This document shows, piece after piece, positions 1 through 37,039 of a stretch of 38,430 nucleotides of DNA. This DNA is from a virus (Duplodnaviria; Heunggongvirae; Uroviricota; Caudoviricetes). The notes below the pieces were generated by a model that saw nothing but the letters and a program-made list of their open reading frames with translations, was not told the DNA's origin and made no database searches. Both the position numbers and the translations under genes were made by a program. Numbering within the stretch: the first letter of the stretch is position 1; every line of letters starts with the position of its first letter. The DNA lies in IMG/VR virus record IMGVR_UViG_2778261428_000003, positions 1-38,430 of that record; one strand, written 5' to 3'.

Positions 1-555
1 CTAATCCCTGCCTACAGGAAATTTTCGGTATAGTGTTGACACTCCTACATCATAAATTAATGCTACGCGCTGACACGTTTCTCCTGCAGCGATTAGTCTC
101 CCTGCCTGCGCCCACTGCTCATCCGTTAGTTTTGGCTTACGTCCACCAATTCGTCCCTGTGCGCGAGCAGCTTCCAGTCCAGCTTTTGTTCGTTCAACAA
201 TCAGTTCACGCTCCATTTCAGCCAGGGCACCCATCACATGAAAGAAAAAGCGCCCCATTGGGGTACTAGTATCAATTGAATCCGTCAGACTACGAAAGTT
301 GATGCCTCGTTCGCGCAACTCCTCAACCAGAATGACCAGATGCCGCATACTACGCCCCAGCCGATCCAGCTTCCAGACAACCAGAGTGTCACCTGCCGAT
401 AATGTCCTGAGCAGTTTTTTCAGTCCTGGCCTTTCGGACTTTGTACCGCTTATCTTGTCTTCAAAAATCAGCTCGCATCCTGCACAGTTCAGCGCATTAC
501 GTTGTAGATCTGTGTTCTGGTCATTTGTTGACACACGTACATAGCCAATAAGCAT
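1..555 (-). CDS. pin: Serine recombinase / DNA invertase (Hin/Gin/Pin family), 184 aa
   Basis: Translation MLIGYVRVSTNDQNTDLQ...GDTLVVWKLDRLGRS has the resolvase/invertase catalytic N-terminus and a C-terminal HTH; ATG at 553-555 (minus), stop TAG at 1-3; sits next to an inverted-repeat-flanked tail-fibre segment. Confidence 0.9.
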   Translation of the reverse strand: MLIGYVRVSTNDQNTDLQRNALNCAGCELIFEDKISGTKSERPGLKKLLRTLSAGDTLVVWKLDRLGRSMRHLVILVEELRERGINFRSLTDSIDTSTPMGRFFFHVMGALAEMERELIVERTKAGLEAARAQGRIGGRKPKLTDEQWAQAGRLIAAGETCQRVALIYDVGVSTLYRKFPVGRD

Positions 556-581
556 GGTAGATCTCCCTGACAAAAGCAGGA

Positions 582-974
582 ATGATGCCATTTGCTCGTT
601 ATTTCTGCATTTTCATAAACGTTGGTTTGGGAGAAGCGGCTAAAAGGAATGTAGGGACAGGGGCGAATCAGATACCTGATATGGGTAGCTTCACGCTTTC
701 TGTTTCAGGTACTGGATATCAAAAATTACCATCAGGTTTTATTCTTCAGTGGGGCTCAATCGGCGCACCAGGCATTGCACAGGATGTAGTAACCCATTTT
801 CCAATTGCATTTCCAAACAGATGTCTGCGTGTTTTGGTCTCACAAGACTACACACCAGATAGCGGGGCTGTTGGTTATATTGCCTGTGCAGGTTTTAGTC
901 CCGACCCGGTTAAATTTATATCCAGAGCCAGTACTCCAGGTCTCGGCGCTTCATTTTTAGCGTTAGGCTGTTAA
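582..974 (+). CDS. Alternative (currently silent) tail-fibre C-terminal segment; expressible only after inversion, effective segment about 624-974
   Basis: ORF reads through the left crossover site encoding N-V-G-L-G-E in the same frame as N-L-G-L-G-D of the expressed fibre; Gly-rich fibre-like sequence; followed by its own tfa gene. Confidence 0.55.
610..635. other. Left inversion crossover site (hix/gix-like 26-bp site)
   Basis: ttttcataAACGTTGGTTTgggagaa is an inverted copy of the site at 2478-2503; both share the core GGTTTGGGAGA. Confidence 0.6.
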
Positions 975-995
975 TTTAGCTATATGGAGTGAAAA

Positions 996-1436
996 ATGAA
1001 TTATATATATTCCGCGACTACAAACTCTTTCTATCCGTTAGAGATGAAAGAGGATTACACTCAAGCTGACTCATGGCCAGATGATGCTGTTGAAGTTGAT
1101 GAGCAAGTGTATATTGAGTTTTCCGGATTACCGCCAAAAGGAAAAATCCGTATCGCTGGAGAAAATGGTTTTCCTGCATGGTCTGAAATTCCACCACCAA
1201 CACATGAGGAACAGATTGCTGCAGCCGAACTGGAAAAGCAGCAACTGATTAATCAGGCCAACGATTATATGAACAGTAAACAATGGCCTGGTAAAGCGGC
1301 TATTGGTCGTCTGAAAGGTGAGGAACTGGCGCAATATAATTTGTGGCTGGATTATCTGGACGCACTGGAACTGGTTGATACCTCCAGTGCTCCAGATATT
1401 GAATGGCCTACGCCTCCGGCAGTTCAGGCCAGATGA
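996..1436 (+). CDS. Tail fibre assembly protein (Tfa), alternate copy inside the invertible segment
   Basis: 146 aa with typical Tfa C-terminus (...LWLDYLDALELVDTSSAPDIEWPTPP); GGAG Shine-Dalgarno before ATG; convergent 3' overlap with second tfa. Confidence 0.75.
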   Translation: MNYIYSATTNSFYPLEMKEDYTQADSWPDDAVEVDEQVYIEFSGLPPKGKIRIAGENGFPAWSEIPPPTHEEQIAAAELEKQQLINQANDYMNSKQWPGKAAIGRLKGEELAQYNLWLDYLDALELVDTSSAPDIEWPTPPAVQAR

Positions 1437-2010
1437 CATTCGGCGCGGTGCTGGTATCTGTTGCCGTCACTGCGTCAATGTAATCCAGCACAGCGTTAAG
1501 CCGGGTGGTTTCTGCCTGCGTCAGCTTCCGTCCGGCCTGTAGTTTCAGTTGAATCAGACTAATGGAAGCCATTGCTGCATCAATCAGTGACTGGCGCAGT
1601 GCTTCTGCCGCGTCTACTGCGGCATTATGCTGTGCCTCAGTATCTGTCACCCATTTCTCACCATCCCATTCATCGTATGGCGTTAACGGGGCGATAGTGG
1701 TCGTATTTTCAGGATAATCACCCGGACCTGTGATTTCTTTCGATTCTCCTGTTTCGGTGCTATAAACGATTTCACCGCGATGGTCTGGCACATATTCCCA
1801 TGAGTTTAAATCCATCGAACGGCAGATAGCATAACCCGCCTTATGTGTGCCAGGGGCATCTAAACAGGAATATGCAGGGATACCGACACCAATGGCAAGA
1901 TATTCATTTGAAGTGGAAATATATTCCCGAGTTTCACCATCATAGTTATAGACGGTAATATTCCCCGCCTTCGTGGCAATAAGCTCGCTATTTAATACGG
2001 CGTTATCCAT
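1408..2010 (-). CDS. Tail fibre assembly protein (Tfa) for the expressed fibre
   Basis: 200 aa, Tfa-like C-terminus (...LNAVLDYIDAVTATDTSTAPNVIWPELPEA); start overlaps the stop of the fibre gene at 2010. Confidence 0.8.
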   Translation of the reverse strand: MDNAVLNSELIATKAGNITVYNYDGETREYISTSNEYLAIGVGIPAYSCLDAPGTHKAGYAICRSMDLNSWEYVPDHRGEIVYSTETGESKEITGPGDYPENTTTIAPLTPYDEWDGEKWVTDTEAQHNAAVDAAEALRQSLIDAAMASISLIQLKLQAGRKLTQAETTRLNAVLDYIDAVTATDTSTAPNVIWPELPEA

Positions 2011-2780
2011 TATGCAGCCCTCACGATAAAGTTAAATGCAATATTTCGTGGACGGGTTTCACTCCCGCCAGTATTACCGATACTCCCTCGTGAATGAAGT
2101 GTCGGTGATGGGATCAGACTCCCTCCTGTATTTGTGGCATCAAGTCCCCGTCCTTGTGTGTATGTCTTTTTGAAAATCGTAGCCAGTTCCCATTCATCTT
2201 TTGTGTCGTAACCATCATTGGCAACAACAATATGACGGTGCTTTTCCAGCATCCCAGCCTGAAGGCTCAATAAAGCACGTCCTGCATCAATACCGCGCCC
2301 ATCATCCCAGCCACGAATAAATTCACCTCGTAAATCAGGCAATTTATTTGTCGGGTAAGCCTTTGCCAGTTCCGGGTATTCTTCAGCAGAAAAAGCCGCC
2401 CCGTTGCATTTCAGCCAGCCTGTTGGAGGTGTCTCTGAAGGCCACGGAACAGGCGCACCAATAGGTAATGCTGAACCATCTCCCAAACCAAGGTTTTCGA
2501 GAGCCGTTTTCACCGTGCCATCCGATTTGATATCGCCAAACGGATTCTTGCGGCTTAACAGCAGCGCACGAAGCGCGGTAAGCAGCTGGTCATGCCGCCC
2601 CTTCTCCAGGCTGGCACCGGATGCCTCCACCACGCTGCAGAGTTCTTCCTGCAACATGTCAAAGTAGTCATCATCCAGATCGGTGGCAGGTGTGCCGGTC
2701 TGGGGGTTACCACGGGTAAAACCGTTCTTACCCGCGCCGAACTTATCCTTCTGCGCGGTTTTCGTGTCTATACGATGCAT
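2010..2780 (-). CDS. Tail fibre protein (constant N-terminus about 92 aa + invertible C-terminus with phage tail-collar/T4 gp12-like domain)
   Basis: 256 aa; motif [22 protein letters not shown]...[17 protein letters not shown] typical of tail-collar fibre domains; crossover site lies inside the gene. Confidence 0.8.
2478..2503. other. Right inversion crossover site (hix/gix-like)
   Basis: atctccCAAACCAAGGTTTTcgagag contains the AAACCAAGGTTTT core known from Hin/Gin sites; imperfect dyad; inverted copy at 610-635. Confidence 0.65.
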
Positions 2781-2783
2781 GGA

Positions 2784-3368
2784 TTACTCCGGATATTTAA
2801 AAATTACGTAGGTATGCGAAGGACAGAGTTTGTTAAGCACACACTCGACAACGGTGTCGCCCCAGATACGCAGTGCGGAATCACAGGGATCGCCACATGT
2901 CATCCAGGTGGTGTTGGTGGCGGCTGGCATGTTGACCTGCCAGTAATACCGCCATTCCGGCGCATTCACAGCGTCAGTGCAGGCTGATGAGCAGGTGAAC
3001 GTGCTTTTGTCGTATCGCGTGATGGTAGCGTCTGATCTACCCAGGGCAGCAAGCTGTGCAAGGTAAAAATCCTCATTGATGCCGCCCGCCAGGTTAACCT
3101 TCGCATCCAGTCGTTGCTGACGCTGGCGAAGGGTCTGTGTCCCTGCGGGAATACATTCATCCGGCAGGCTGCACAGACGCTCCCAGCGGTTTATCAGTTC
3201 GGTGGTGGTGCGCGGATCCAGCTCCCGCATCAGGGCATCCGCACGCTGATGAACACGAGTTAATGACGGTGCCGCACCGGCAATCGCCGGATCGCTGGCT
3301 GACCACGCCGGACCGGGCGGCAGCAGTGCCGACAACAGACGGATGTAATCATCGTTTGTCACGTCCAT
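2784..3368 (-). CDS. ymfQ: DUF2313 family tail protein (Mu gp48-like, e14 YmfQ-like), 194 aa
   Basis: Length and position between baseplate J and tail fibre; recognised from translation; recalled similarity to e14 YmfQ. Confidence 0.65.
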
Positions 3369-4417
3369 GAAATCGTACCCAGAACCGCCAGTTCATTTTT
3401 TGCAATGGAGATATTGTCCGCCGGAGCAAGCAACTGATGGCTGTATTCCCCGTTCGCACCGGAAATCGCTTCACTGATACGCGATACCTTCAGCTCTCCC
3501 TGCGGATAACCATCACGCAGCAGGAATGAACGCAACTCTGCGGTAATGGCAGCCCGTATTTCCGGTGTGTCCGGCGTCACGCGGATATGAAAATCCACCG
3601 TATGTGCCACCGGCCTGAACACATACAAATCAGAGCCTGCCACCGGGGCCAATGGCCCGATATGTTGTCTTGCCGCCGTTTCCGTTGATTCTTCAGGAAT
3701 GGGATTAATCAGGTCACTACTGGCAATCATCACACCGACAGTCCCCGTTCCCATCCAGTGACGATATGCCCATGCGCGGGTAATGCCGGGCACTTCTTTA
3801 GCCCAGACGACATAGTCCCCGTCAGCCCCGCCCTGAGGCGTCCAGTAATACCGCTCAATGATGCGGGCGCGCCACGTTTCCAGCTCTTCAGTATCAAATC
3901 CGCCTGTCAGGGTGTCAGCCACACCGGAAGACGGCAGCCCATTCACCGGCGTGACCAGGATTAATGCCGTACCGTCGTCAGCGTTACCGACCGCACCTGC
4001 ACTTGAGCAGGCGATCGGCACGCGCAGGACACCACCGGAGCTGGTTGCATCGGCAGTTGCCGTGTACTGAACCAGGTCATCGCGCTGAATAACACTCCCG
4101 GCGGTCACCTTCAGGCCATCACTGACACCTTCCCAGCGCATATATCCGCTGGCAGCCGTGGCCCCCTTGCGCGGACACCGTTTCATCGCAGCATGTCGCG
4201 CCAGCCAGGACTCATCGCACAGGTCAGGCAGCATGTTCAATGCCAGATAATCGATGTACCCGTAAACCGTATGCAGCGCCGCCGCATACACCTTTGCCCG
4301 CACGTCTTCATCCATGCGCCGGAGCGTGTCGCTGACGTCCAGCCTGGCGAATAAATCGTTACGGAGCATACTGATATTTTCTGCCAGCGTCGGGCGCTGA
4401 AATTCACTGTCCGCCAT
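3359..4417 (-). CDS. Baseplate J-like protein (Mu gp47-like)
   Basis: 352 aa, position in Mu-type baseplate block, operon packing with overlaps. Confidence 0.75.
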
Positions 4418-35443: not shown

Positions 35444-37039
35444 ATGGCTGAAGCAGCAAAAAAAACTCCACAAAAGCTGAATGAAAAAAAAGGCTCAACA
35501 TCAGCATCATCACTTGAGATTGTGAATTCACGACAATCAAAAGATATTTATCTTGGATTGTGTGGATATGTTGGATGTGGCATGAGAACGATAAACAAAA
35601 TTATCGAAGAGATATCCAAAGAATGGGGGTATAATGTTGTACACATCCGCATAAGTGCGCTTATGGAAAACCCATTATATTTTGAGCCAGCAGCACTGGA
35701 GGTATCCGAAAGCACACAAGTTAATAGACATTTAAAACTCCAGGATATTGCCAATAAGCTTCGTAAACATTACAAAAAAAATGAGTTGCTTGCAGAAGCT
35801 GCTATTGCAGCAATCGCAGCAGAGAAAAATAATATTGATTATAATAATGATGAATATAAAGGTACTGTCTTCATCATTGATCAATTCAAAAGGCCGGAAG
35901 AAATAGAGTTATTCAGAGTTATATATCAGCATAATTTCTATTTATTAGGAGTTTTGCGCGATTTAGATTACCGAATTCCGAATCTCATTGCTGACGAATC
36001 GACAAAGGACGACCTTCATTTAATTATCAATATTGATAATAAATCCTCTGATCCGTATGGACAAAGAACCGGGGAAACCATTCTTGATTCAGATTTTTTT
36101 ATTAAAAATAACTTCAGCCAAAAAAGTGAATTAAAGAAGAAGATTGATCGGTTTTTCGGTCTTATTCATGGCAAAAATGGTTTAACACCAACTTTTAACG
36201 AGAAAGGTATGTATGCTGCCTTTTCAACATCATTACAATCAGCTTGTTTATCACGTCAAGTAGGGGCTGCACTGTTTGATGATGAAGGGAATTTGCTTGC
36301 CGTGGGTAAGAACGACGTACCTAAAGCTGGTGGCGGGTTGTATAGCAGTGATGATTTTGATAACGATCATCGATGCGTTCACAAAAGTGGTAAGTGTTAT
36401 AATGATGCAAACAAGCTAAAAATTAAAGACCGTATAAAAAGCATATTATCAACCGAAGTAAGAAATGTATTAGGTATTTCCGCAGGACAAACTGTTGCCG
36501 ATATTAATATAACACGACTTCTAAACAAATTAGATAATATTGCAGAAGGCATTTACAAAGACAGCAAAATATCAAGTGTAATGGAGTATTCCAGATCAAT
36601 TCATGCTGAAATGGACGTCATTACATCAATGGCTAGAAAACAAAACGGCGATACTAAAGATAAAATTCTTTTTACGACAACCTATCCCTGCCACAACTGT
36701 GCAAGGCATATTGTCGCAGCTGGAATAAAAAAAGTAGTATATATAGAGCCATTTGATAAAAGCCTTGCTCTTGATCTGCATAATGATGCAATAACAAAGA
36801 ACGAAGAATCATCCAAAGTAATATTTTGTGATTTTGAGGGGGTATCACCCCGCCGCTACCATAAATTTTTCAGACCAACGGATGAACGTAAAGATGATAA
36901 AACAGGGACTGCAAATAAATTTAATGCTCGCTACAAAAATCATATAGATGTTCAATATCTTGATGATTATAGAAAGTATGAGACTGTTGTAGCTAAGAAA
37001 TTTATAAACGAGATTGCTAAACCAGAGTCTCAGCCATAA
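35444..37039 (+). CDS. avcD: AvcD-like antiphage deaminase: N-terminal P-loop-like domain fused to C-terminal cytidine/dCMP deaminase domain
   Basis: Zinc-dependent deaminase signature H-A-E (aa 387-389, SIHAEMDVI) and P-C-x-x-C (aa 415-419, TYPCHNCARH); Gly-rich loop GLCGYVGCGMRT at aa 38-49; 531 aa; AT-rich; between xis and int. Confidence 0.8.
   Translation: MAEAAKKTPQKLNEKKGSTSASSLEIVNSRQSKDIYLGLCGYVGCGMRTINKIIEEISKEWGYNVVHIRISALMENPLYFEPAALEVSESTQVNRHLKLQDIANKLRKHYKKNELLAEAAIAAIAAEKNNIDYNNDEYKGTVFIIDQFKRPEEIELFRVIYQHNFYLLGVLRDLDYRIPNLIADESTKDDLHLIINIDNKSSDPYGQRTGETILDSDFFIKNNFSQKSELKKKIDRFFGLIHGKNGLTPTFNEKGMYAAFSTSLQSACLSRQVGAALFDDEGNLLAVGKNDVPKAGGGLYSSDDFDNDHRCVHKSGKCYNDANKLKIKDRIKSILSTEVRNVLGISAGQTVADINITRLLNKLDNIAEGIYKDSKISSVMEYSRSIHAEMDVITSMARKQNGDTKDKILFTTTYPCHNCARHIVAAGIKKVVYIEPFDKSLALDLHNDAITKNEESSKVIFCDFEGVSPRRYHKFFRPTDERKDDKTGTANKFNARYKNHIDVQYLDDYRKYETVVAKKFINEIAKPESQP

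What the first reader, a model, noticed from the sequence alone, without database searches (positions are those of the whole stretch)
1..2503. Pin-type invertible tail-fibre switch with in-frame crossover sites
An invertase gene abuts an about 1.87-kb segment bounded by inverted hix/gix-like sites (610-635 and 2478-2503). Both sites share the core GGTTTGGGAGA and sit in coding frame: the expressed fibre reads N-L-G-L-G-D across the right site, and the silent plus-strand segment reads N-V-G-L-G-E across the left site. Inversion would therefore fuse the constant 92-aa N-terminus to a different C-terminal receptor-binding segment and swap the Tfa chaperone. That gives the phage two host-range states.
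Basis: seen in the sequence. Interest (0 to 1): 0.5.

Follow-up and report, generated by a model that had tools for sequence, protein, structure and literature searches.

The report
Pin-invertible phage tail-fibre switch (e14 type)

Summary
An intact serine invertase gene (1-555, minus strand; Ser9 present) is 92% identical to E. coli K-12 PinE. It lies 67 bp from a 26-bp crossover site (610-635). A second site in inverted orientation lies at 2478-2503. These are the only two such sites in the 38-kb window. They match the two e14 sites at 26/26 and 25/26 bases.

The TT/AA core occupies codon positions 2-3 in both reading frames. Inversion of the 1870-bp segment therefore replaces the expressed 256-aa collar-domain fibre and its 200-aa Tfa chaperone with a 213-aa gp53-like fibre and a 146-aa Tfa.

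Inversion at these sites happens in nature. The window's arrangement is collinear in 72 complete E. coli genomes, and a computed flipped version is collinear in 66. Two pairs of near-identical genomes differ only by an exact inversion whose breakpoint zone begins at the predicted core. The predicted flipped protein matches an annotated protein of a naturally flipped genome at 212/213 residues.

The window is a complete SfV-like myovirus prophage. Two host-range states is an inference by analogy with phages Mu and P1; it was not tested here. The system is already known and of low interest. One nuance: a 2025 paper reports an anti-phage role for the invertase-proximal 'silent' ORF in e14.

The parts
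1..555 (-). pin: DNA invertase of the Gin/Hin/Cin/Pin family, 184 aa. The window begins at its stop codon.
   Evidence: Pfam Resolvase 1.2e-51 and HTH_7 2.6e-13. 92% aa identity to K-12 PinE and 78% to Mu Gin; Ser9, H106 and M114 are wild type. Best solved relative is Gin, 3UJ3, E=2.7e-91.
466..537 (-). Candidate recombinational (Fis) enhancer inside the 5' part of pin, at +19..+90 of the coding sequence. It holds two 15-bp candidate Fis cores at 533-519 and 485-471, 48 bp centre to centre.
   Evidence: The position is homologous to the enhancer annotated in the P1 record at +19..+90 of cin. Identity is 70/72 to K-12 pinE, 55/72 to P1 cin and 54/72 to Mu gin. Candidate cores sit at the same offsets in pin, pinE and gin. 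The synonymous-site test was only suggestive, p=0.056.
610..635 (.). Invertase-proximal crossover site (pix), TTTTCATAAACG|TT|GGTTTGGGAGAA, with the core at 622-623.
   Evidence: 26/26 identical to the pinE-proximal site of K-12 e14. Its core lies 67 bp from the pin ATG, the same spacing as gix-gin in Mu.
582..974 (+). Invertase-proximal ORF of 130 aa: a 12-aa leader outside the segment, then alternative fibre cassette B (624-974, gp53-like C-terminal domain). It is not joined to the fibre N-terminus in this orientation.
   Evidence: Pfam Gp53-like_C 4.3e-15. After in-silico inversion it yields a 213-aa fibre. That fibre is 212/213 identical to the annotated protein of the naturally flipped E. 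coli WP4-S18-ESBL-09.
996..1436 (+). Tail-fibre assembly chaperone (Tfa, 146 aa) paired with cassette B.
   Evidence: Pfam Caudo_TAP 1.9e-38. 48% identical to K-12 TfaP.
1408..2010 (-). Tail-fibre assembly chaperone (TfaE-like, 200 aa) paired with the currently expressed cassette A. It converges on the other tfa gene and overlaps it by 29 nt.
   Evidence: Pfam Caudo_TAP 1.9e-30. 90.5% identical to K-12 TfaE.
2010..2780 (-). Currently assembled tail-fibre gene (256 aa). The constant N-terminus is codons 1-97 (2490-2780). The variable collar-domain cassette A (2010-2489) lies inside the invertible segment.
   Evidence: Pfam Collar 1.2e-15. The first 97 residues (1-97) are 96/97 identical to K-12 StfP. 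The cassette is 73% identical to the in-silico K-12 StfP2, with a divergent tip.
2478..2503 (.). Distal crossover site (pix) inside the fibre gene, ATCTCCCAAACC|AA|GGTTTTCGAGAG, with the core at 2490-2491.
   Evidence: 25/26 identical to the distal site of K-12 e14. It is in inverted orientation to the left site, with a matching core.
622..2491 (.). The invertible segment, 1870 bp from core to core.
   Evidence: Homologous segments differ between near-identical genomes by an exact inversion, with breakpoints in TTGGTTTGGGAGAAG.
2784..3368 (-). Context: the Mu gp48/YmfQ-like baseplate gene directly upstream of the fibre gene, in the late tail operon.
   Evidence: Pfam Phage_Mu_Gp48 1.9e-26. Annotated ymfQ in homologues.

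Best explanation
This is the Pin/P-segment inversion switch first described in the defective E. coli prophage e14. Here it sits in an apparently complete SfV-like myovirus prophage.

Proposed mechanism:
- Pin dimers bind the two 26-bp sites, probably helped by Fis bound to an enhancer in the first 90 bp of pin.
- Pin cuts at the central TT/AA dinucleotide through Ser9, rotates the strands and religates them. This inverts 1870 bp.
- Both sites lie in the same codon phase. Each orientation therefore joins the constant 97-residue baseplate-attachment part of the fibre to one of two unrelated C-terminal cassettes: a collar-domain tip or a gp53-like tip.
- Each orientation also places the matching Tfa chaperone directly downstream in the late operon.

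A lysogen population would therefore release virions with one of two receptor-binding tips.

What is shown and what is inferred:
- Shown: the anatomy, the in-frame geometry, the identity with the e14 sites, and natural inversion of close homologues.
- Inferred: activity of this particular copy, dependence on Fis, and the effect on host range.
For: - Invertase: intact, with Ser9 and both domains. The residues reported in PMC3798978 as specific to Fis-dependent invertases are present. In Hin numbering these are Q151/R154/L155 and basic 47/48/51, which correspond to Pin Q150/R153/L154 and K46/K47/R50. M114 is wild type; Gin M114V is the Fis-independent mutant.
- Sites: 26/26 and 25/26 identical to e14. 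The same site finder places its cores exactly on the annotated Mu G-segment boundaries and on the P1 cixL crossover. There are only two sites in the window.
- Frame: the in-frame flip gives a 213-aa protein. It matches a natural protein at 212/213.
- Orientation census: the native arrangement is collinear in 72 E. coli genomes and the computed flipped arrangement in 66.
- Exact inversions: O157 strains 118 and 119, and ECONIH1 and WP4-S18-ESBL-09, are identical over 6.3 kb except for an exact inversion. The breakpoint zone starts at the predicted core.
- Literature: e14 P-segment inversion was shown by sequencing, PCR and qPCR, with repeats TTGGTTTGGGAGAAGG (PMC4272514; PMC12529663).
- Prophage context: a full structural module, a repressor and an integrase.
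Against: - A single assembled sequence cannot show that this copy flips.
- The C-terminal 27 residues of Pin, including part of the HTH region, differ from most pinE alleles.
- The right site differs from e14 at one inner base.
- The simple scan found no consensus promoter for pin.
- The enhancer is supported only by homology. The synonymous-site test was not significant.
- No receptor or host-range data exist for either cassette.
- The gp53-like cassette is only 33% identical to the K-12 cassette, so its function cannot be carried over from K-12.
Confidence: 0.85

Rival explanations
1. The switch mainly, or additionally, serves the lysogen as an anti-phage device. In the present orientation the invertase-proximal ORF (582-974: short leader plus gp53-like receptor-binding domain) would be expressed as a free protein. 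That protein would occupy surface receptors and block adsorption of other phages, as reported for StfE2 of e14.
For: - PMC12529663 reports that inversion of the e14 P segment creates StfE2 (leader plus gp53-like C domain, residues 47-125). It reports that StfE2 blocks T2 adsorption and that the cured inverted strain is T2-resistant.
- The window is in the equivalent orientation.
- Its 130-aa ORF has the same build: Gp53-like_C at residues 48-130 and a leader [12 protein letters not shown] against MMPFACYFFIFI in K-12.
Against: - The cassette is only 33% identical to K-12 StfE2.
- The start codon has a poor ribosome-binding context: AGGA abuts the ATG.
- No convincing promoter was found.
- The leader is not conserved in Rosenbergiella, Mangrovibacter or Morganella loci.
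- Most of the published evidence used plasmid overexpression.
- The prophage here looks intact, so a role in the virion is the simpler reading.
Confidence: 0.15
2. The structure is a frozen relic. The sites and cassettes are inherited from an active ancestor, but this copy no longer inverts.
For: - Only one orientation can be seen in one assembly.
- The Pin C-terminus is a variant allele.
- One base differs between the inner half-sites.
- Some E. coli homologues lack pin altogether, for example strain 998, where the match starts at 617.
Against: - Every component is intact: there are no frameshifts or stops in pin, in either cassette or in either tfa gene.
- The cores match.
- Close homologues flip.
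- Other Pin-family invertases in the host can act in trans on these sites (PMC12529663).
Confidence: 0.08
3. It is a multi-site shufflon-like system, as in plasmid p15B Min, that would generate more than two fibre variants.
For: Related phage and plasmid systems with several crossover sites exist. A P2-like prophage with four co-existing variants is described in PMC4272514.
Against: Only two sites are present in the whole 38-kb window, even allowing 3 mismatches. Only two cassettes and two tfa genes lie between them.
Confidence: 0.01

Closest known systems
Pin / invertible P segment of the defective E. coli K-12 prophage e14 (pinE, stfP/ycfK, tfaP, tfaE, stfE)
   Same: - The gene order is the same: ymfQ, fibre, tfa, then tfa and cassette on the opposite strand, then pin.
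- Pin is 92% identical to PinE.
- The crossover sites are 26/26 and 25/26 identical.
- The constant fibre N-terminus is 96/97 identical, and TfaE is 90.5% identical.
- The spacing from site to pin is the same.
   Different: - e14 is a 15-kb remnant without a complete head or tail module. This window is a complete SfV-like prophage.
- The cassette contents differ. The gp53-like cassette is 33% identical, the collar cassette is 73% identical with a different tip, and the second Tfa is 48% identical.
- The segment is 1870 bp here against 1829 bp core to core in K-12; the paper quotes 1797 bp.
- The window is in the orientation that is 'inverted' relative to the MG1655 reference.
Gin / G segment of phage Mu (S-U versus S'-U')
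   Same: - The logic is the same: a constant fibre N-terminus, two convergent cassette-plus-chaperone pairs, and 26-bp inverted sites.
- The invertase lies just outside the segment, 67 bp from the site core.
- Gin is 78% identical to this Pin.
- The tail and baseplate genes are Mu-like: gp46, gp47 and gp48.
   Different: - The G segment is about 3 kb and its fibre proteins are much longer.
- The gix core is TC/GA, not TT/AA.
- The cassette proteins are not the same families.
Cin / C segment of phage P1
   Same: - Cin is 81% identical to this Pin.
- cixL, CAATCCTAAACC|TT|GGTTTAAGAGAA, has the same TT core and a similar inner half-site.
- The enhancer annotated at +19..+90 of cin aligns with the window's pin at 55/72.
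   Different: In P1 the cin gene lies on the other side, so that cixL overlaps the 3' end of cin. The C segment is about 4.2 kb.

Membership tests
Fis/enhancer-dependent serine DNA invertases (Gin, Hin, Cin, Pin) | Small serine recombinase: an N-terminal catalytic domain with the nucleophilic Ser9 (Ser10 in Hin) and a C-terminal HTH. | tested here: met
   Resolvase and HTH_7 domains. Ser9 is invariant in the alignment with PinE and Gin. Gin structure 3UJ3 matches at E=2.7e-91 over residues 1-183.
Fis/enhancer-dependent serine DNA invertases (Gin, Hin, Cin, Pin) | Two 26-bp crossover sites in inverted orientation. Each has imperfectly symmetric 12-bp half-sites around a 2-bp core, and the two cores are identical. 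| tested here: met
   Sites at 610-635 and 2478-2503, with core TT/AA. The same search places its cores on the annotated Mu and P1 crossover points.
Fis/enhancer-dependent serine DNA invertases (Gin, Hin, Cin, Pin) | A recombinational enhancer with two Fis sites about 48 bp apart, located in cis within the 5' part of the invertase gene. | tested here: inconclusive
   The homologous stretch 466-537 is 55/72 identical to the annotated P1 enhancer. It has two candidate cores 48 bp apart. This region also encodes the most conserved part of the protein. Excess synonymous conservation was only p=0.056. Fis binding cannot be tested with these tools.
Fis/enhancer-dependent serine DNA invertases (Gin, Hin, Cin, Pin) | Residues that contact Fis and the enhancer: Hin Q151, R154 and L155, and basic residues at 47, 48 and 51. 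| tested here: met
   Pin has Q150, R153, L154 and K46, K47, R50. The residues are listed as invertase-specific in PMC3798978.
Fis/enhancer-dependent serine DNA invertases (Gin, Hin, Cin, Pin) | Demonstrated inversion of the flanked segment. | not testable with these tools
   This cannot be tested for this copy. For close homologues it is met: there are exact inversions between near-identical genomes, and the genome census is 72 native against 66 flipped.
e14-type Pin P-segment tail-fibre switch | A pinE orthologue adjacent to the segment, with pix sites of the e14 sequence. | tested here: met
   92% aa identity to PinE. Sites are 26/26 and 25/26 identical. The published repeat TTGGTTTGGGAGAAGG matches the left site at 15 of its 16 bases (window TTGGTTTGGGAGAAGC). 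The right site shares the first 13 bases.
e14-type Pin P-segment tail-fibre switch | A constant Stf N-terminus downstream of ymfQ, fused in frame to either of two cassettes, each followed by its own Tfa. | tested here: met
e14-type Pin P-segment tail-fibre switch | The same cassette alleles as K-12 e14 (StfP and StfE C-termini). | tested here: not met
   The gp53-like cassette is 33% identical and the collar cassette 73% identical. The window carries different receptor-binding alleles on the same scaffold. Near-identical alleles, about 96%, are annotated in other E. coli genomes.
Host-range switching by tail-fibre inversion (Mu and P1 paradigm) | The two orientations give virions with different adsorption specificity. 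| not testable with these tools
   Inferred from the architecture and from unrelated C-terminal domains (Collar versus Gp53-like_C). There are no experimental data for these cassettes.

The most novel reading that the evidence does not exclude
In an intact SfV-like prophage the switch may do two jobs at once. The cassette joined to the constant N-terminus would set the virion's receptor specificity. The other cassette, read from the short conserved leader next to pin, would be made as a free receptor-binding domain in the lysogen and block adsorption of competing phages. This would extend the StfE2 report for e14. Flipping would then toggle host range and the superinfection-exclusion spectrum together.
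Probability: 0.12. Interest if true: 0.5.

Novelty: already known. Interest (0 to 1): 0.12.

Why it matters
It matters little as a discovery. The Pin/e14, Gin/Mu and Cin/P1 switches have been textbook examples of programmed DNA inversion since the 1980s, and near-identical loci are already annotated (pinE, tfaE, ymfQ) in hundreds of E. coli genomes.

It has three practical uses:
- Annotation: the 130-aa 'gp53-like domain-containing protein' called next to pin is a cassette with a fortuitous or minor start, not a normal gene.
- Assembly quality control: such segments break assemblies or are reported in an arbitrary orientation.
- Phage biology: this is an intact relative of e14. Unlike in the defective e14, the host-range consequences of the P-segment switch, and the recently claimed defence role of the invertase-proximal ORF, could be tested on real virions.

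Tried and rejected
1. A third or cryptic crossover site (shufflon-like). None was found with up to 3 mismatches in the whole window.
2. The inverted repeat I1 (1346-1367 / 1468-1489) as a recombination site. Rejected: it is the homologous C-terminal coding sequence of the two convergent tfa genes (LDYLDAL / LDYIDAV).
3. A consensus promoter for pin or for the invertase-proximal ORF. The scan found nothing above the shuffle background.
4. Excess synonymous conservation as independent evidence for the enhancer. The result was 0.49 against 0.36, p=0.056, which is not significant.
5. The source organism, by exact search for the window-specific junction in GTDB species representatives. No hit. A general site search gave paired sites in Shigella, E. 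coli, Rosenbergiella and Mangrovibacter, plus many single chance hits in unrelated MAGs.
6. The original e14 papers (PMC331406, PMC554175) and the Johnson review (PMC4384473). These are not held in the library. What I say about them rests on citations in PMC4272514 and on general knowledge.
7. Transfer of the StfE2 anti-T2 function to the window's ORF. Rejected as a claim because identity is only 33%.
Full report
**1. Observation**

- Invertase gene. An ORF on the minus strand ends at position 1 and is listed as 1-591. Its likely start is the ATG at 555 (MLIGYVRVST...), preceded by GGGAGA. This is the start annotated for pinE in homologous E. coli loci.
- Left site. A 26-bp sequence at 610-635 reads TTTTCATAAACG|TT|GGTTTGGGAGAA.
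- Right site. Its inverted partner at 2478-2503 reads, reverse-complemented, CTCTCGAAAACC|TT|GGTTTGGGAGAT.
- Match between the sites. They agree at 20 of 26 positions, with an unbroken 13-bp identity from the core inward. The repeat finder lists them as an 18-nt inverted repeat, 94% complementary.
- Chance. The 18-mer AAACSTTGGTTTGGGAGA, allowing up to three mismatches, occurs only at these two places in all 38,430 bases, against 0.08 expected.
- Reading frames. The fibre ORF 2010-2780(-) reads A-L-E-N-L-G-L-G-D across the right site. The plus-strand ORF 582-974 reads I-N-V-G-L-G-E across the left site. The TT/AA core is codon positions 2-3 in both.

One detail needs adjusting. Exchange occurs in codon 97, so 96-97 residues are constant.

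**2. What the parts are**

Pfam assigns the following:

| ORF | Domain(s) |
|---|---|
| Invertase | Resolvase + HTH_7 |
| Fibre, 256 aa | Phage tail Collar domain, in its variable part |
| ORF 582-974 | Gp53-like_C domain |
| 996-1436(+) and 1408-2010(-) | Caudo_TAP (tail-fibre assembly chaperones) |
| 2784-3368(-) | Mu gp48 |
| 3359-4417(-) | Baseplate J |

The rest of the window is a complete phage:

- It carries a baseplate hub, tape measure, sheath, major head protein, portal, large terminase, a CI-like repressor and an integrase at the far end.
- Window 3400-28000 is 97-98% identical, over 51-67% of its length, to the Shigella flexneri phages SfII, SfI, SfIV and SfV. It is 97.1% identical over 88% of its length to Escherichia phage vB_EcoM-689R6.

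So the switch sits at the end of the late tail operon of an SfV-like myovirus prophage.

**3. Identity with the e14 Pin system**

- K-12 MG1655 e14 has the same order: ymfQ, stfP(ycfK), tfaP, tfaE(-), stfE(-), pinE.
- The window's invertase-proximal site is 26/26 identical to the e14 site next to pinE. The distal site is 25/26 identical to the e14 site inside stfP.
- The repeats published for the e14 P segment, TTGGTTTGGGAGAAGG and its complement (PMC12529663), match the window's left site at 15 of 16 bases and share their first 13 bases with the right site.
- Pin is 92% identical to PinE and 78% to Mu Gin. It is 81% identical to P1 Cin.
- The first 97 fibre residues are 96/97 identical to StfP, and the 200-aa chaperone is 90.5% identical to TfaE.
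- The cassettes are different alleles. The collar cassette is 73% identical, with a divergent tip. The gp53-like cassette is 33% identical. The second Tfa is 48% identical.

As a control on how I defined the sites, the same pattern search on phage Mu returns two sites whose cores fall exactly on the annotated G-segment boundaries. The annotated crossover in P1 cixL falls on the TT of CAATCCTAAACC|TT|GGTTTAAGAGAA.

**4. Does it invert?**

One assembled sequence cannot show this, so I looked at homologues.

- Orientation census. Window 1-3400 is collinear (at least 80% coverage in one place) in 72 complete E. coli genomes, with a best identity of 95.9%. I then built the predicted inversion product in silico (622-2491 reverse-complemented) and searched with it. 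It is collinear in 66 other genomes, with the same best score.
- Clonal strains. Both orientations occur among near-clonal O157:H7 cattle isolates at the same chromosomal coordinates.
- Exact breakpoints. Strain 118 against strain 119, and ECONIH1 against WP4-S18-ESBL-09, are identical over about 6.3 kb apart from an exact inversion. The zone of breakpoint ambiguity is TTGGTTTGGGAGAAG, which starts precisely at the predicted core TT.
- Predicted protein. The flipped 213-aa fibre is 212/213 identical to the protein annotated in the naturally flipped WP4-S18-ESBL-09 genome.
- Published experiments on e14. Both orientations coexist in clonal MG1655-derived cultures by sequencing and PCR (PMC4272514). 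qPCR gives about 30% inverted in wild type. PinE, PinQ and PinR all act on the segment (PMC12529663).

**5. Mechanism**

- The invertase has the nucleophile Ser9. Gin S9 is the DNA-linked residue (PMC3575834).
- It has wild-type M114. Gin M114V is the Fis-independent mutant.
- It has the residues that PMC3798978 lists as specific to Fis/enhancer-dependent invertases. In Hin numbering these are Q151, R154 and L155 and basic residues 47, 48 and 51, which correspond here to Q150, R153, L154, K46, K47 and R50.
- The P1 record annotates the Cin enhancer at +19..+90 of cin. The homologous stretch of the window's pin (537-466) is 70/72 identical to pinE, 55/72 to cin and 54/72 to gin.
- That stretch holds two 15-bp candidate Fis cores (533-519 and 485-471), 48 bp apart, at the same offsets in pin, pinE and gin. 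The proximal candidate lies about 97 bp from the site core. This fits the roughly 100 bp quoted for hixL and the proximal Fis site.
- This stretch also encodes the catalytic-serine motif, so conservation of the DNA is not independent evidence. Same-codon usage at invariant residues was 0.49 inside the enhancer against 0.36 outside, p=0.056. I therefore call the enhancer probable by homology, not demonstrated.
- No consensus sigma-70 promoter for pin was picked up by the simple scan.

Consequence of inversion:

- In the present orientation, the late operon reads constant N-terminus, collar cassette, then the TfaE-like chaperone. The chaperone's start overlaps the fibre stop.
- After inversion, it reads constant N-terminus, gp53-like cassette, then the 146-aa Tfa, which is preceded by GGAG.
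- The two C-terminal domains belong to different Pfam families, so they plausibly bind different receptors.
- The claim that this gives two host ranges is an inference from Mu and P1. It was not tested here.

**6.

- The invertase-proximal cassette is not simply promoterless DNA in the databases. It forms a 130-aa ORF (582-974) with a 12-residue leader that starts 36 nt outside the site, and PGAP annotates it as a protein.
- For K-12 e14, PMC12529663 reports that the equivalent product in the inverted state (StfE2: leader plus gp53-like domain) blocks adsorption of T2 and other phages.
- The window is in that equivalent state.
- I give this a low probability here, for four reasons:
  - The cassette is only 33% identical to StfE2.
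  - The ATG has a poor ribosome-binding context.
  - The leader is conserved only among E. coli/Shigella loci.
  - No promoter is evident.

**7. Comparison and novelty**

This is a member of the Gin/Hin/Cin/Pin inversion systems, and specifically of the e14 Pin P-segment type. The scaffold and sites are the same as in e14, and the receptor-binding alleles differ. Alleles about 96% identical to the window's are already present and annotated in RefSeq E. coli genomes. Nothing in the anatomy departs from the known system, so I rate it 'already known' and of low interest. The most novel reading still open is a dual role, in virion host range and in lysogen phage exclusion. That would need expression data.

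**8. Distribution**

An exact search for the site in GTDB species representatives found paired inverted sites 1.5-2 kb apart in Shigella flexneri, E. coli, Rosenbergiella and Mangrovibacter. In Mangrovibacter phragmitis a 1639-bp contig begins and ends exactly at the two sites. It carries two gp53-like cassettes that read NLGLGD inward from each end, each followed by a Tfa gene. This is the signature of an assembler breaking at an invertible segment.

Noticed in passing
L044 (Mangrovibacter phragmitis NZ_LYRP01000026.1, 1-1639): A whole contig of 1639 bp starts and ends exactly at the two inverted crossover sites. It carries two gp53-like cassettes (both reading NLGLGD inward) and two Tfa genes. 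This is probably an assembly break caused by both orientations being present in the sequenced culture.
   Followed up: partly
window 582-620: The 'silent' cassette has an in-frame ATG-ATG leader ([12 protein letters not shown]) outside the invertible segment, opposite the pin 5' untranslated region. It is conserved in E. coli/Shigella e14-type loci and is annotated by PGAP as the start of a 130-aa protein. It corresponds to the StfE/StfE2 start discussed in PMC12529663.
   Followed up: partly
window 1-82: The 3' end of pin (last ~27 codons, part of the HTH domain: GETCQRVALIYDVGVSTLYRKFPVGRD) differs from most pinE alleles. The best E. coli matches begin at query position 82-83, which suggests a mosaic junction inside the invertase gene.
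   Followed up: no
window 35444-37039 (+): A 531-aa ORF between the early region and the integrase. It matches phrog_9198 (unknown function) over its full length and has a weaker dCMP-deaminase-like central region. It may be a moron or defence gene.
   Followed up: no
L062 (Escherichia phage vB_EcoM-689R6, ON470584.1, 1-2309): In this closely related phage record the invertase is followed by an McrA-like gene, as in e14, and then by a truncated 'side tail fiber' gene. No invertible segment lies between them. The record is partial, so the segment may have been lost in assembly.
   Followed up: no
window 1408-1436: The two convergent tfa genes overlap by 29 nt at their 3' ends and share a homologous C-terminal motif (inverted repeat 1346-1367 / 1468-1489). 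K-12 tfaP and tfaE show the same overlap.
   Followed up: partly
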